Part shown: positions 7,852 through 12,395 of the stretch, in pieces
Position numbering within the stretch: position 1 is the stretch's first letter
Layout of the letters: every line of letters begins with the position of its first letter
Assembly (NCBI GenBank): GCA_003971905.1
Contig: RSEE01000103.1
Location: 1 to 64,000 of the forward strand
Origin: Moniliella sp. 'wahieum'
Taxonomy: Eukaryota
Length of the DNA: 64,000 nucleotides
Reading direction: 5' to 3'
The notes under the pieces: generated by a model
What the model saw: only the letters and a program-made list of their open reading frames with translations
What the model was told of the DNA's origin: nothing
Database searches by the model: none
Program-made: the position numbers and the translations under genes

Positions 7852-9679
7852 TTATGCGCCCAACTGGAGTGCCTGCCACTCCGCCACCGAGCCTTTGCGC
7901 ACATCCGGCGCACCTGGTAGCACGGGATCCACCTGTTGGTCGCCCGGTTTGCCCCACCCACCTCCTCCAGGGGTCAATACAGCAATCCGATCCCCGCGCC
8001 CATGCGCGTGGTGGCCTTGGGGCCCAAATTGATTATGCGCGCCGGCTGACCGAGGATGTGGTGCTTCCTTTCTTCTTCCGGCTGGGCGGCCACTTGTTCG
8101 GCAGAGAGCAGATCGCCATCCTCGCTACGCCGCTGCTTGATCCACAAGTTAAGGCCGACCTCACCTGGCTCGCCGCCTTCCATCCCGTACGGTCGATGCA
8201 CCCTGCGCTCCGACAGAATCGACACCTGCATGCCCGGTTGGAGAAACTCAATCTCCCGCACCGTTCCATCGCCGCCGCGATAGGCCCCGGCTCCACCTGA
8301 GTGCGGCCGCAGAGCAAATTTGCGTACCAGAACAGGAAACCTGCGCTCCATGACTTCAGCATCCGTAATCCGTGTGTTGGTCATGTGCACCTGCACGCCC
8401 GAAGTGCCGTTCCACCCGGGCCCGGCCCCGGAACCCCCGGCAATCGTTTCGTAGTTGCTGATGCCTTGGCCGTTTGCGTCAACCGGCGTACCCCAGGTCA
8501 GGTTGTTGCAGCACCCCTGTGACGCGGCCGCAGCGTGGAAGGCGTGCAGGACGACATCGGTGATTCGCTGCGAGGTCAGGACGTTGCCGCCTACCACAGC
8601 GGCTGTGTCGCTGGGGTCCAACAGGCATCCGGGTGGGATGACAACGTCGATAGGCACGAGGCAGCCTTGATTCAGGGGCATGTCGATGTTGACCATCGCC
8701 CTGAGGCAATAGATGATCGCACTGTACACTACACTCCGGGGGCAATTGAAATTGGCCAACACTTGTGGGCCGGTACCGGTAAAGTCAAATGTCGCCTTCC
8801 CCTCCCGCGGGTCAATCTCAATCGCCAGTTGGATCGGTGTACCATCGTCCATCCAGTCAATCGCCTGGAGACGTGTGCCCTGCTCCGATGCCACTTGTCG
8901 GAGCAGGTTGCGAACTGCAAGTTCGGCGTTAGACCGGATGTGGACCATATACTTCCCCATTGCCCCGTTCGTCAGTTGCCACTCCGAATCAGACAGAGGA
9001 GAGAGAAGGGTATAATACGAACCTCTTGTACAACGGGCAAGGTCCACTCTTTGATGAGCGCCTGCAGCAACTTGATCCCTTTGTTGTTGGCGGCAATTTG
9101 GGCTTGCAGGTCCGACTCAACGTCGCGAAACGCGCGCGAGCCGGCACAACCCGCGTACTGAGCAGGCTGGGTGACAAGGTAGTCGTACAGCCCCTTGTGG
9201 TCATACACGCCCCTCCGTACCAACTTGAAACTGATGATCTGTGCCCCTTCTTCCCACAGCGAAGTCGAAGTGGGTGGCATGGAGCCCGGGAGGATACCGC
9301 CAATGTCGACGTGGTGTCCGCGCGAAGCGGTATAGAAGATGATTTGGCCCTTGTCAAACACGGGGGAGATGACGGTCATGTCGGGCAGATGGCTGCCGCC
9401 TGCCTTGGGATGATTCGCCGTAACACATCTCCCTCCTCGATGTCGCTCCCAGCAGGCCAATCTGGTAGCGCACGGCAAACGACATGCTGCCCAGGTGGAC
9501 GGGGAGGGGGGGGCGTTGGCAACGAGTGCGCCGGTGGCATCAAAGATGGCCACCGAGTAGTCCAGCCGTTCTTTGATGTTGGCGCTGATGGCGGTCTTCT
9601 GCAGGGTCAGCCCGGCGGTCTCGGCGATGCCCTGGAAGCGGTGGCCAAAGAGGGAGAGCAGCACGGGGTCGGCCGGCAT
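7852..9679 (-). CDS. OXP1: 5-oxoprolinase, C-terminal (hydantoinase B-like) half encoded as a separate gene
   Basis: [97 protein letters not shown]; ends [23 protein letters not shown]. GT-AG intron at 8952-9022; a few indels. Confidence 0.93.
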
Positions 9680-10086
9680 TGGTGGGAGAGTGCAGTGGGT
9701 GGTGGTGGTCGGGGTCGTGGTGGCGGTGGCGGTGGCGATAGCGGACACGCAGACAAACACTCAATCGAGCGTCAGGCGCGTCAGGGCGGACCAGGGCGGA
9801 CGGTGCCAGTGGCGGTGGGGAAGCGTGGCCGGCTGAGCGCTTATCGATGACAAACTGAGAAGAAAACACGCTATCTCCGGCGCTGTGCACGGACCACAGG
9901 GCGCCCTGTCAGCGCTGCGTGCTCGGAGCCAGTATCGCACCTCCGCCCGCCCAACCCTATCACTTCTATCACGGCAGACGATTGTTAGTCTGGCAACCCA
10001 CCTCGCTTCCCTCGCACGCCACCCGCTGCGCTCCCCGGGCTCCTGGACCATCCGCACGCCCCTCCCTGCTCTTGCCCCCACCTGCC
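9680..10086. promoter_or_regulatory. Putative bidirectional promoter between the two oxoprolinase halves, with four HGATAR (GATA-factor) sites
   Basis: 407 bp between divergent ATGs. Minus-strand HGATAR matches appear on + as TTATCG 9841, CTATCT 9871, CTATCA 9957 and CTATCA 9966. Confidence 0.55.
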
Positions 10087-12395
10087 ATGGCTGCTGCCCC
10101 CACCCCCACCCCCACCGCCGTCCCGCCCGGCAAGAAGATCCGCATCGCGCTCGACCGCGGCGGGACGTTTCTCGACGCCGTCGCCTCCATCCCTGGGCGC
10201 GGCGACGTGGTGTTCAAGCTCCTGTCGCACGACCCTGCGCACTATGCCGATGCGCCGACCGAAGCCATTCGACGCATCCTCCAGATCGCCCTCGGCCGCC
10301 CCCTGCCGCGCACCGAAAAGCTGGATGCCAGTCCGATTGAAAGCATTCGGTTGGCCACGACAGTCGCGACCAATGCGTTGTTGGAGCGCAAAGGCCAGCG
10401 GCACGCGCTGGTCACTACCCAGGGGTTTGGCGACTTGCTGCGCATCGGTAACCAAGCCCGGCCGGATATTTTTGCCTTGGCCATTCACAGGCCGGAGGTG
10501 CTGTTCTCCGCGGTGATAGAGGCGGAGGAGCGGGTGACGTTGGTGGGCGCGACCAACGACCCGCGCCACGCCGAGCAAGCCGTCCAGTTTGACCAGGGCA
10601 AGGTTGTGCGCGCCTATTCGGGACCCGACCTGCCCCCACTGGTGTACAGGGACGGGCAGTGGGTCGAGCCGGAAATTGTGGAGGGTGTGTCGGGCGAAGC
10701 GGTGGCGATCCTCACTCCGCTCAACCAGCCCAAACTGCGTGCGGACCTGCAACAACTCAGGCGAGATGGGATCGACGCTTTGGCCATCGTGTTGTTGCAT
10801 GGATTCACGTTCCCCCAGCATGAAGATCTCATTGAACAGATCGCACGTGAAGAAGGATTCAAGTACATTTCCACCTCGCGCTTGCGCCCCGTGATCAAGG
10901 CGGTGGCAAGAGGGCACTCGGTCTCGGCCGATGCATACTTGACGCCAGTGTTGCATGACTATCTCCACTCGTTTTTCCAGGGCTTTACGCCTTCGCTGCG
11001 AGATGGCACGGCGGGGACTAAGGTGGAGTTTATGATGTCCGACGGCGGCTTGACCCAGGTCGATCGCTTTTCAGGGCTGCAGAGTATCCTCTCTGGTCCG
11101 GCCGGTGGCGTGGTCGGCATGGCCTTGACCACTTTTGATCCCGTGGATGGCCGTGCAGTGATTGGGTTCGATATGGGCGGTACCTCGACAGACGTATCCA
11201 GGTACGACGGGCGGTACGAGCACGTGTTTGAGTCGACCACCGCCGGCGTGACGGTGGCTGCGCCGCAGTTGGACGTGAATACGGTGGCATCGGGAGGGTC
11301 GAGCATGCTGTCGTATCGCAATGGCATGTTTGTCGTTGGCCCGGAAAGTGCGTCGGCACACCCGGGCCCAGCTGCGTATCGCAAAGGAGGGCCGTTGACC
11401 ATTACGGACGCTAACCTCGTTACCGGCCGGTTGGCCGTCGAGATGTTCCGCGCATCTTTGGGCCGAACGAAGACCAAGGTCTTGACTTTGACCGTTCCCT
11501 TGAACTCTTCACCCAACTTACTGACGAAATTAACAAGGACCGGCAAGCGCAGGGCCAACCCAGCTACAGCGTGGATGAAGTGGCCCACGGCTTTTTGCGC
11601 GTGGCAAACGAGACGATGGCCCGGCCGATCCGCATTGACCGAAGCCAAAGGATATGCTGCCTCACGTCACATTTTGGCCTCGTTTGGTGGCGCCGGAGGG
11701 CAGCATGCATGTTCGCTGGCGCGCGGGCTGGGGATCAAGTTGGTGGTGGTGCACATGTACTCGTCTCTCTTGTCGGCGTATGGGATGGCATTGGCAGAGC
11801 GGGTGCACGAAGTGCAAGTACCAGCGTCGATGCGCTTGGAGGCAGCGACGATGCCGGCGTTGCAGAGGCGCTTCCAGGAGTTGGAGGAGCAAGTGGGACA
11901 AGTGTTGGGGGGAGAAGGGTTTGCCCCCGAGCAAATCAGCTGCGAGCGCTACCTCCACCTCCGGTACGACGGCACCGACACGCAGCTCATGACGCTGGTC
12001 CCGCCACGTGGCGGGGTGGCGGACGCGTTCACACAGGCGTACCAGCAAGAGTTTGGCTTTGTTTTGACGGACAAGGCGGTGATGGTGGACGATGTGCGAG
12101 TCAAGGGCATTGGCCACGCCTACTCCCACCTCCCGCCGCCGCTGGTGGAGGACTTGCGGACGCATGAGGGAGGGTTTTGTCCACCGCCGCGCACGGGCCC
12201 ACAAGGCCGATCTACTTTGCCGGGCAGGGGCGTGTGCCTACGCCGGTGCTCAAGCTGGCCGAGGTGGGGGTGGGGGAGAAGGTGGCGGGGCCGGCGGTGT
12301 TGGTCGACGAGACGCAGACGCTGTTGGTGGAGCCGGCGTGCACTGCCTACCGCCTCGCGCGCGGCGTGGTGGTGGAGATCGGCGACGAGCACTAG
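10087..12395 (+). CDS. OXP1: 5-oxoprolinase, N-terminal (hydantoinase A-like, ATP-binding) half encoded as a separate gene
   Basis: IALDRGGTFLD, KLLSHDPAHYADAPTEAIRR, TTVATNALLERKG, LSGPAGGVVG, GFDMGGTSTDVSR, TVASGGSS, VGPESASAHPGPAAYRKGGPLTITDAN, FGGAGGQHAC; ends GPAVLVDETQTLLVEP..VEIGDEH-stop after an indel. Confidence 0.93.

What the first reader, a model, noticed from the sequence alone, without database searches (positions are those of the whole stretch)
7852..12395. Eukaryotic 5-oxoprolinase split into two head-to-head genes at the domain boundary
Seen: the hydantoinase-A half (+, 10087-12395) has its own stop right after VEIGDEH. The hydantoinase-B half (-, 9679-7852) has its own ATG directly before the [12 protein letters not shown] motif. 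The two starts are 407 bp apart. Established: animal, plant and yeast OPLAH/Oxp1 is a single fused A-B polypeptide, while many prokaryotes encode separate HyuA/HyuB-type subunits. The B half keeps a eukaryote-style C-terminal tail (RKGSVAEWQ) and a spliceosomal intron, which argues for fission of the native gene rather than bacterial transfer. Inference: one inversion covering the promoter and the A half, with a breakpoint in the linker, gives exactly this geometry and a co-regulated two-subunit enzyme. I cannot tell from here whether this has been reported for this lineage.
Basis: partly seen in the sequence, partly recalled or inferred. Interest (0 to 1): 0.8.

Follow-up and report, generated by a model that had tools for sequence, protein, structure and literature searches.

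The report
Split 5-oxoprolinase genes, common in basidiomycetes
This fungus encodes the glutathione-cycle enzyme 5-oxoprolinase as two separate genes placed head to head, but the split is an old feature shared by basidiomycete fungi and already present in public annotations, so only the side-by-side placement is unusual.

Summary

The split is not specific to this lineage. Stand-alone A (about 755-797 aa) and stand-alone B (about 575-660 aa) proteins are annotated across Ustilaginomycotina, Pucciniomycotina and Agaricomycotina, all cut at the same linker.

Trees place both halves inside fused eukaryotic 5-oxoprolinases, next to fused Ascomycota, and away from prokaryotic forms. That supports fission of a eukaryote-type gene and rejects bacterial transfer.

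In 15 of 15 comparable species the halves lie on different contigs, so the head-to-head pairing here is local. The spacer is rich in GATA motifs, found post hoc.

A Cryptococcus neoformans supplement lists an adjacent A-only/B-only pair plus a fused gene, so the history is more complex than one inversion.

Verdict: a real, ordinary member of a known but undescribed split family.

The parts
10087..12395 (+). A-half gene (HyuA-like ATPase half of 5-oxoprolinase). About 770 codons once 4 missing bases are allowed for.
   Evidence: Pfam Hydant_A_N 7e-51, Hydantoinase_A 5e-54 and 5e-14, Hydant_A_C 0.002. 58-66% identical to stand-alone basidiomycete A proteins of 755-797 aa.
7852..9679 (-). B-half gene (HyuB-like half). 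Exon 1 is 9679-9023, the intron 9022-8952, and exon 2 8951-7852. About 586 codons once 4 missing bases are allowed for.
   Evidence: Pfam Hydantoinase_B 1e-69 (profile 1-208) and 1e-103 (profile 208-491). 61-68% identical to stand-alone basidiomycete B proteins.
8952..9022 (-). Spliceosomal intron of B, 71 nt, GT..AG.
   Evidence: Protein-to-genome alignment with 3 of 3 homologues. tblastn frame change from -1 to -3.
9680..10086 (.). 407-bp shared upstream spacer between the two ATGs. It holds five HGATAR motifs, at 9736, 9841, 9871, 9957 and 9966.
   Evidence: sequence; mean 0.40 motifs per 407-bp window, maximum 5, and 0.2% of sliding windows reach 5. The motif was chosen after seeing the sequence.
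11443..11447 (+). Frame break 1 in A: one base missing (ttcc|gcgc where ttcccgcgc would read FPR).
11630..11636 (+). Frame break 2 in A: two bases missing (atccgc|attgacc where PIRALTE is expected).
12174..12182 (+). Frame break 3 in A: one base missing (or two extra) at ggttt|tgtcc.
9505..9512 (-). Frame break 1 in B: a run of 8 G on the + strand (8 C on the coding strand) where 9 would restore [13 protein letters not shown].
9417..9449 (-). Frame break(s) 2 in B: two bases missing in all, placed as one 2-base or two 1-base gaps depending on the homologue.
7997..8006 (-). Frame break 3 in B: one base missing, before [15 protein letters not shown].

Best explanation
The locus holds the two genes of the basidiomycete form of eukaryote-type ATP-dependent 5-oxoprolinase (EC 3.5.2.9).

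Origin. In basidiomycetes the enzyme that animals, plants and ascomycetes make as one A-B polypeptide is encoded as a separate A protein (ASKHA-type ATPase half, about 770 aa) and a separate B protein (about 590 aa). The gene was cut in the inter-domain linker before the three basidiomycete subphyla diverged.

State of the genes. Both genes here are most likely intact. The seven or so missing-base frameshifts are consensus errors of the assembly.

How it probably works (inferred). The two proteins assemble into a heteromer, as bacterial two-subunit relatives such as caprolactamase CapAB do, and open 5-oxoproline to glutamate at the cost of ATP.

Local arrangement. Unlike in the other basidiomycetes that could be compared, the two genes here lie head to head around a 407-bp GATA-motif-rich spacer. 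That spacer could act as a shared, possibly nitrogen-regulated, bidirectional promoter (inferred). This pairing is a local arrangement, not the signature of the fission event.
For: Domains.

Spread of stand-alone forms.
- B: 115 of the 120 best hits in the 575-2000 aa search carry Hydantoinase_B alone. They come from Ustilagino-, Puccinio- and Agaricomycotina. The other 5 are fused ascomycete proteins.
- A: 120 of 120 listed hits of 456-797 aa carry only A-type domains, from the same three subphyla. The search range excluded fused lengths.

Same cut point: 9 of 9 aligned basidiomycete A proteins plus the window end within a few residues of the last A-domain strand. 8 of 8 B proteins plus the window begin 3-31 residues before DPILLSLF.

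Phylogeny: basidiomycete clade SH-aLRT 99 in both trees, beside fused Ascomycota (91 and 86). Eukaryotes are separated from named prokaryotes with support 98.

Intactness.
- No stop codons on the corrected paths.
- The window keeps 227 of 233 (A) and 214 of 232 (B) columns that are invariant in 13 relatives. Two of the B misses lie at a frame break and most of the rest are conservative.

Assembly errors.
- The GH5 gene at 55.4-58.4 kb has 4 one-base-missing breaks against its closest homologue, and 3 of these recur with 3 further homologues.
- All the breaks in the two halves can be read as missing bases. In one search one homologue read the 12178 break as two extra bases.
- Earlier scan notes report the same defect in other pieces of this genome, including RPB2.

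Separate transcripts in relatives: members of the Tilletia B cluster sit on contigs of 1949-1994 nt, and several A proteins on contigs of 2364-2716 nt. These are mRNA-sized.

Unlinked halves elsewhere: 15 of 15 species named in both lists. 3 stand-alone B metagenome loci with 1.5-10 kb upstream carry no A.

Two-subunit precedent: passages of PMC8453981 say CapA and CapB align to the N- and C-terminal parts of eukaryotic oxoprolinase, which corresponds to the fused subunits.
Against: - No reads or RNA data could be laid on the locus, and the rest of the genome is not held. So intactness, expression and the absence of a fused copy elsewhere in this genome are all untested.
- B has a long branch (0.63-0.67 against 0.12-0.39 for other Ustilaginomycotina). 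It departs from 18 invariant columns, including H->Q and T->V in GVHTHMTN, which could mean relaxed constraint.
- Contig-length comparison is an indirect test of linkage and rests on the longest contig recorded per cluster.
- A fused gene does exist in one basidiomycete, C. neoformans CNAG_02464 (supplementary Table S3b of PMC7067042). 'The' native gene being split may therefore be too simple.
- The GATA enrichment was tested after I noticed the motifs.
- Enzyme activity of any split eukaryotic form has not been shown in anything I could read.
Confidence: 0.8

Rival explanations
1. The head-to-head pair is a relic of the original fission. One inversion with a breakpoint in the linker split the ancestral fused gene. 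This lineage kept the resulting geometry while other basidiomycetes later scattered the halves.
For: - The geometry is exactly what such an inversion gives.
- Once separated, halves are unlikely to rejoin by chance with a 407-bp spacer.
- C. neoformans also has an adjacent A-only/B-only pair.
Against: - Window A nests inside Ustilaginomycotina with Parajaminaea and Sympodiomycopsis (SH-aLRT 99). Retention would therefore need many independent separations: Ustilaginales, Malasseziales, Tilletiales, Exobasidiales and others, plus both other subphyla.
- No inverted repeats or other scar flank the A half.
- The Cryptococcus pair overlaps by 1.7 kb. Its strands and its orthology are unknown to me.
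Confidence: 0.12
2. The two halves are decaying pseudogenes. The frameshifts are real and the function is lost or carried by another copy.
For: - Seven or so frame breaks in 4.1 kb.
- B is more diverged than its relatives.
- No expression data.
Against: - The same kind and density of breaks occurs in an unrelated GH5 gene. According to earlier notes it also occurs in other genes of this genome, RPB2 among them.
- The breaks fit loss of 1-2 bases each. There are no stop codons and no larger deletions.
- 97% (A) and 92% (B) of invariant columns are kept.
Confidence: 0.06
3. The adjacency or the orientation is an assembly artefact (mis-join or false inversion).
For: The assembly is visibly error-prone at base level. 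In 15 of 15 comparable species the halves are unlinked.
Against: - Both genes are complete, with their own start, stop and flanks. A mis-join would have to fall exactly in the 407-bp spacer.
- No repeat that could cause it was found.
- Base-level indels do not imply structural errors.
Confidence: 0.04
4. The halves are bacterial hyuA/hyuB-type genes acquired by horizontal transfer.
For: Two separate subunits are the usual bacterial layout. Some prokaryotic MAG proteins reach 54-58% identity to the basidiomycete B protein.
Against: - Those closest prokaryotic forms are fused A-B. 46 of the 50 loci tabulated have A directly upstream on the same strand.
- They fall outside the eukaryote clade (98).
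- The halves carry a spliceosomal intron and group with fungi in the order of the species tree.
Confidence: 0.01

Closest known systems
Stand-alone 'Hydantoinase B/oxoprolinase' and 'related to 5-oxoprolinase' proteins of Basidiomycota. Examples: Tilletia maclaganii KAL9932364.1 (B, 628 aa) and V8E36_009526 (A, 772 aa); the Ustilago trichophora, Malassezia and Melampsora entries.
   Same: Same domain content, same lengths, and the same cut in the linker. 58-68% identity. Same clade in both trees.
   Different: In those species the two genes lie on different contigs (15 of 15 comparable). Here they are head to head, 407 bp apart. The window B has a very short N-terminus (MPA before DPVLL) and some unusual substitutions.
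Fused eukaryotic 5-oxoprolinase: OPLAH of animals and OXP1 of S. cerevisiae. Here represented by fused proteins of Zalerion, Beauveria, chytrids and insects.
   Same: Same three A-type domains followed by Hydantoinase_B. 55-66% identity in B. The basidiomycete halves nest among them.
   Different: One polypeptide of about 1230-1370 aa with a 15-40 residue linker. Here there are two genes on opposite strands.
Bacterial two-subunit ATP-dependent lactamases: caprolactamase CapAB (PDB 6YRA), and related acetophenone and acetone carboxylases.
   Same: Separate A-like and B-like subunits that work as a complex (passages of PMC8453981). These are the nearest solved two-chain structures.
   Different: Only distant in sequence (E 7e-10 for B and 8e-27 for A against 6YRA). 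Different substrates. The window proteins do not group with prokaryotes.
Cryptococcus neoformans H99 CNAG_06873 (B-only) and CNAG_06872 (A-only), with fused CNAG_02464.
   Same: A basidiomycete with adjacent A-only and B-only genes annotated as 5-oxoprolinase, whose expression changes in the same direction between lineages (main-text passage and supplementary Tables S1b, S3a and S3b of PMC7067042).
   Different: The pair is subtelomeric and shows near-zero counts in some isolates. The coordinates overlap by 1.7 kb and strands are not given. A fused gene coexists. I could not obtain the sequences, so orthology to the window pair is unknown.

Membership tests
Eukaryote-type ATP-dependent 5-oxoprolinase (OPLAH/OXP1) | Hydant_A_N + Hydantoinase_A (+ Hydant_A_C) domains | tested here: met
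   7e-51, 5e-54 and 5e-14. Hydant_A_C is only 0.002, below the curated cut-off, in the piece tested.
Eukaryote-type ATP-dependent 5-oxoprolinase (OPLAH/OXP1) | Hydantoinase_B domain | tested here: met
   1e-69 and 1e-103, together covering profile positions 1-491 of 519.
Eukaryote-type ATP-dependent 5-oxoprolinase (OPLAH/OXP1) | A and B joined in one polypeptide of about 1250 aa | tested here: not met
   opposite strands, each with its own stop and start.
Eukaryote-type ATP-dependent 5-oxoprolinase (OPLAH/OXP1) | Groups with eukaryotic enzymes rather than prokaryotic ones | tested here: met
   eukaryote clade 98-100, basidiomycete clade 99.
Eukaryote-type ATP-dependent 5-oxoprolinase (OPLAH/OXP1) | ATP-dependent hydrolysis of 5-oxoproline to glutamate | not testable with these tools
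   Needs an enzyme assay or complementation.
Basidiomycete split 5-oxoprolinase (stand-alone A and B) | A ends just after the last A-domain strand, and B begins a few residues before DPILLSLF | tested here: met
   the window A ends ...VVVEIGDEH and the window B begins [11 protein letters not shown]. Both align with 9 A and 8 B relatives.
Basidiomycete split 5-oxoprolinase (stand-alone A and B) | Member of the basidiomycete clade in trees of each half | tested here: met
   The window A groups with Parajaminaea and Sympodiomycopsis (99).
Basidiomycete split 5-oxoprolinase (stand-alone A and B) | Intact reading frames | tested here: inconclusive
   Frames are broken at 6-7 places. The same defect in the GH5 neighbour points to assembly error. 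No reads were available.
Prokaryotic two-subunit HyuA/HyuB-type lactamases | Separate A and B subunits | tested here: met
Prokaryotic two-subunit HyuA/HyuB-type lactamases | Sequence groups with prokaryotic subunits | tested here: not met
   The closest prokaryotic forms are fused and lie outside the eukaryote clade.

The most novel reading that the evidence does not exclude
The head-to-head pair with a GATA-rich 407-bp spacer is not chance. It is either the preserved product of the inversion that split the ancestral fused gene at the root of Basidiomycota, or a later selected re-pairing that puts both subunits under one nitrogen-regulated bidirectional promoter. Either way it would give a natural test case for how a fused eukaryotic enzyme became a working two-subunit enzyme. 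No paper I could search describes this for 5-oxoprolinase.
Probability: 0.2. Interest if true: 0.5.

Novelty: new member of a known kind. Interest (0 to 1): 0.3.

Why it matters
The split is real and eukaryotic in origin, but it is a phylum-wide, already annotated trait of basidiomycetes, not a discovery about this genome.

It has modest value in three ways:
- The fission is a clean rare genomic change shared by the three basidiomycete subphyla. It seems not to be described in the papers I could search.
- No split eukaryotic 5-oxoprolinase has been assayed, so whether the halves work as a complex is open and easy to test.
- This genome offers an unusual divergent pairing that could show co-regulation.

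It also flags that frameshifts in this assembly should not be read as pseudogenes.

Tried and rejected
- Sequencing runs: none was listed for 7500-12800, and no RNA holder was listed.
- Whole genome: not held, so a fused paralogue elsewhere in this genome could not be sought.
- Pfam continuity test for frameshifts in Pex19, Endonuclease V, the mitochondrial carrier and PRP38: inconclusive, because every gap left room for an intron.
- Flank synteny between the window and the stand-alone B metagenome loci L028, L048 and L051 by tblastx: only noise outside the B gene.
- Inverted repeats around the A half: only short, imperfect matches. Tandem repeats: one trivial array. Rfam: nothing in 6500-13500.
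- Earlier scan notes near the locus, and by sequence: nothing. By words: only bacterial cases.
- Literature: nine full-text searches found no paper that describes the basidiomycete split. 'oxoprolinase' with 'gene fission' gave 0 papers.
- Leonard and Richards 2012 (PMC3535628) is not held, so I cannot say whether it lists this fission. In PMC6926304 and PMC2557144 the words oxoprolinase and hydantoinase do not occur.
- Naming more cluster representatives gave no tremellomycete sequence. The Cryptococcus genes could therefore not be placed in the trees.
- A second 'intron' at 8093..8046 (48 nt) was proposed by the alignment with 2 of 3 homologues. It is in frame and lies in a variable-length stretch, so I treat it as coding.
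- Complex prediction was not run: the two proteins exceed its 1000-residue limit. Structure prediction was not needed.
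Full report
**What is in the sequence**

The window is a GC-rich eukaryotic chromosome piece with fungal housekeeping genes: Tel2-like, Rad23-like, Pex19, PRP38, Erv1, Endonuclease V, a GH5 hydrolase and a mitochondrial carrier.

At the given coordinates lie two genes.
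- A + strand gene runs from ATG 10087 to a stop at 12393-12395, with Hydant_A_N and Hydantoinase_A domains.
- A - strand gene runs from ATG 9679 to a stop at 7854-7852, with a Hydantoinase_B domain.

The two starts are 407 bp apart. B has one clear intron of 71 nt, GT..AG, at 9022..8952. The C-terminal tail [15 protein letters not shown] fits the family consensus RGSLAER..AQLGA. tblastn with six relatives finds nothing else of this family in the window.

A protein-to-genome alignment that allows frameshifts and GT..AG introns was run with three homologues per half.
- In A it places breaks at 11443-11446 (one base missing), 11634 (two missing) and 12178 (one missing).
- In B it places breaks at 9508 (a run of eight C where nine are needed), within 9446-9420 (two missing in all) and at about 8006-7997 (one missing).

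With four bases added to each gene the lengths become exact multiples of three: 770 and 586 codons plus stop. These lengths match the relatives.

**Are the frameshifts real?**

I tested an unrelated neighbour. The GH5 gene at 55.4-58.4 kb was aligned to its closest homologue (552 of 810 matched codons identical). It shows four one-base-missing breaks, at 56326, 56373, 56666 and 58090, and no stops. Three of these recur with three more distant homologues.

Other points agree.
- Nearly all the breaks in the two halves and in the closest GH5 alignment read as missing bases. The exception is the 12178 break, which one homologue read as two extra bases.
- There is no stop codon on either corrected path.
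- The window keeps 227 of 233 (A) and 214 of 232 (B) columns that are invariant in 13 relatives. Two of the B misses sit at a frame break and most of the others are conservative.
- Earlier notes of this scan report the same defect in other pieces of the same genome, RPB2 among them. These notes are unchecked, but they agree with my own test.

I conclude that the breaks are most likely assembly indel errors (about 0.9). No sequencing run was listed, so this could not be checked on reads.

B is nevertheless the more diverged half. It has a long branch, and it has H->Q and T->V changes in the GVHTHMTN motif.

**How widespread is the split?**

A search of all cluster representatives with the large B exon gave a 628-aa stand-alone protein as best hit, ahead of fused proteins of 1231-1375 aa. 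It is a Tilletia maclaganii protein.

The word-indexed search for longer proteins (575-2000 aa) listed 120 proteins.
- 115 carry Hydantoinase_B alone. They come from Ustilaginomycotina (Ustilago, Sporisorium, Malassezia, Tilletia, Tilletiaria, Meira, Exobasidium and others), Pucciniomycotina (Puccinia, Melampsora, Rhodotorula, Microbotryum and others) and Agaricomycotina (Lentinula, Pleurotus, Tulasnella, Suillus and others).
- 5 are fused ascomycete proteins.

The A query returned 120 of 120 A-only proteins of 456-797 aa from the same three subphyla. By design that search could not return fused lengths.

Many of these records are named 'related to 5-oxoprolinase', '5-oxoprolinase (ATP-hydrolyzing)' or 'Hydantoinase B/oxoprolinase'. 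Several cluster members sit on mRNA-sized contigs: 1949-1994 nt for B and 2364-2716 nt for A. That fits separate transcripts.

An alignment across the junction shows that all sampled A proteins stop within a few residues of the last A-domain strand. All sampled B proteins start 3-31 residues before DPILLSLF. This is the linker of the fused enzymes.

**Origin**

- In a tree of the B domain (43 rows) the 18 basidiomycete proteins plus the window form one clade (SH-aLRT 99). It sits beside fused Ascomycota (91) and inside fused enzymes of chytrids, Zoopagomycota, animals, a stramenopile and a red alga. Bacteria-like metagenome sequences fall outside.
- The A tree gives the same picture (99 and 86). 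It puts the window with Parajaminaea and Sympodiomycopsis (99), that is, inside Ustilaginomycotina near Microstromatales.
- A scan of prokaryote genomes found MAG proteins of Desulfobacterota, SAR324, Nitrospinaceae and others that reach 54-58% identity. In 46 of the 50 loci I tabulated these are fused, with A directly upstream on the same strand. In the other 4 the match touches the contig end.
- With 15 named prokaryotes added, eukaryotes still form a clade (98) and basidiomycetes still form one within it (99).

All three trees were quick searches with SH-aLRT support only.

Bacterial transfer is therefore rejected. Fission of a eukaryote-type gene before the basidiomycete subphyla diverged is the simplest reading.

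**Is the head-to-head layout part of that history?**

For 15 species the same species or strain is named in both lists: Tilletia maclaganii, T. horrida OC844, Ustilago trichophora, Ustilago sp. UG-2017b, Sporisorium reilianum, Violaceomyces, Exobasidium rhododendri, two Malassezia, Testicularia, Ceraceosorus, Melampsora larici-populina, Rhodosporidiobolus poonsookiae, Daedalea and Fomitopsis serialis. In 15 of 15 the A and B proteins are recorded on contigs of different length. Where locus tags are positional they are hundreds to thousands of genes apart.

I left out species whose two entries come from different assemblies or from clusters with several contigs: T. walkeri, S. scitamineum, the fern record, Lentinula, Tulasnella and Suillus.

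Of 80 metagenome loci with a B match:
- 59 have A upstream on the same strand;
- 21 have no A match, and in 17 of these the B match lies within 300 nt of the contig start;
- none has an A match on the opposite strand beside B.

The three intron-bearing stand-alone B loci with 1.5-10 kb of upstream sequence (L028, L048, L051) have no A.

So the pairing in this window is not the common state. Because the window nests within Ustilaginomycotina, a relic of the founding inversion would need many independent separations. I give that reading about 0.12. No repeat or scar marks an inversion.

**A complication from the literature**

The supplementary tables of a C. neoformans expression study (PMC7067042) list three genes (I read one main-text passage and rows of Tables S1b, S3a and S3b).
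- CNAG_06873: Hydantoinase_B only, chromosome 5, 14471-18539.
- CNAG_06872: A domains only, chromosome 5, 16856-19548.
- CNAG_02464: a fused gene with both domain types, on chromosome 6.

The CNAG_06872/06873 pair is adjacent, overlapping and subtelomeric, with near-zero counts in some isolates.

Adjacency of split halves is therefore not unique. At least one basidiomycete has a fused gene as well. I could not obtain these sequences, so their relation to the window pair is open. No tremellomycete appears among the 120 best hits of either half.

**How it probably works**

- Shown: domain content, family placement, and separate genes.
- Inferred: the A protein is the ATP-binding half and the B protein the partner needed for hydrolysis, and the two form a heteromer. 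This rests on two-subunit relatives such as caprolactamase CapAB. That paper states that eukaryotic oxoprolinases correspond to the fused subunits and are dimers of about 1250-aa chains (passages of PMC8453981).
- Recalled, not read here: classical work on the two-component Pseudomonas putida 5-oxoprolinase points the same way.
- Nearest solved structures by sequence: a fused N-methylhydantoinase (7HK5) and CapAB (6YRA). Both are distant.
- Lead, not a result: the 407-bp spacer holds five HGATAR motifs. That is the highest density of any 407-bp stretch in the 64-kb window (mean 0.40; 0.2% of sliding windows reach five). It would suit a shared promoter under a GATA-type nitrogen regulator. I chose the motif after seeing the sequence.

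**Novelty**

Nine full-text searches found no paper that describes the basidiomycete split. The genome-wide fusion and fission survey of fungi by Leonard and Richards (2012) is not held, so I cannot say whether it lists the split. The split is plain in public annotations of many species. I therefore file the locus as a new member of a known kind and score it low. The local divergent pairing and the untested biochemistry are the only open points.

Noticed in passing
window 55373-58400 (+): A GH5 / Glyco_hydro_5_C gene of about 815-830 codons has one-base-missing frame breaks at 56326, 56373-56388, 56666-56669 and 58090. This suggests a general base-level indel problem in the assembly.
   Followed up: yes
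window 30500-32100 (-): Only weak, fragmentary OPT oligopeptide-transporter matches (E 1e-3 to 3e-6) are spread over three overlapping frames, in a stretch of lower GC (0.52). It may be a decayed or very intron-rich and error-rich transporter gene.
   Followed up: no
L081, L082, L104, L106, L108, L110, L114, L116, L124 (prokaryote MAG contigs): Fused A-B oxoprolinase genes of Desulfobacterota, SAR324, Nitrospinaceae and Methylococcales MAGs are 54-58% identical to the basidiomycete B protein. Those sampled in the tree branch next to the eukaryote clade, well apart from other bacteria. This hints at an old exchange between these bacteria and eukaryotes.
   Followed up: partly
window 8390-8395 (-): The window B protein reads GVQVHMTN where 13 of 13 basidiomycete relatives have GVHTHMTN. 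This could be a lineage-specific change in a strongly conserved motif, or a base error.
   Followed up: no
P0245 and P0290 (records named Adiantum nelumboides): A fern genome record carries basidiomycete-type stand-alone B and A proteins, 62-65% identical to the window. This is probably fungal DNA in the fern assembly.
   Followed up: no
P0006 (615 aa, metagenome) and P0012 (1611 aa, metagenome): A B-only-length protein groups, in a poorly resolved cluster, with a red alga and a 1611-aa fused protein, not with basidiomycetes. It is either a truncated gene call or an independent split outside fungi.
   Followed up: no
window 12445-12472: An AT-rich palindrome (ATCGACAGGTAATTAATTAATTGCCGAT) lies 50 nt downstream of the A stop codon in otherwise GC-rich DNA. 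It may be a 3'-end signal.
   Followed up: no
window 1-4000: Strong positive GC skew (0.17-0.22), lower GC (0.54), and no Pfam match in the four ORFs tested. The content is unexplained.
   Followed up: no
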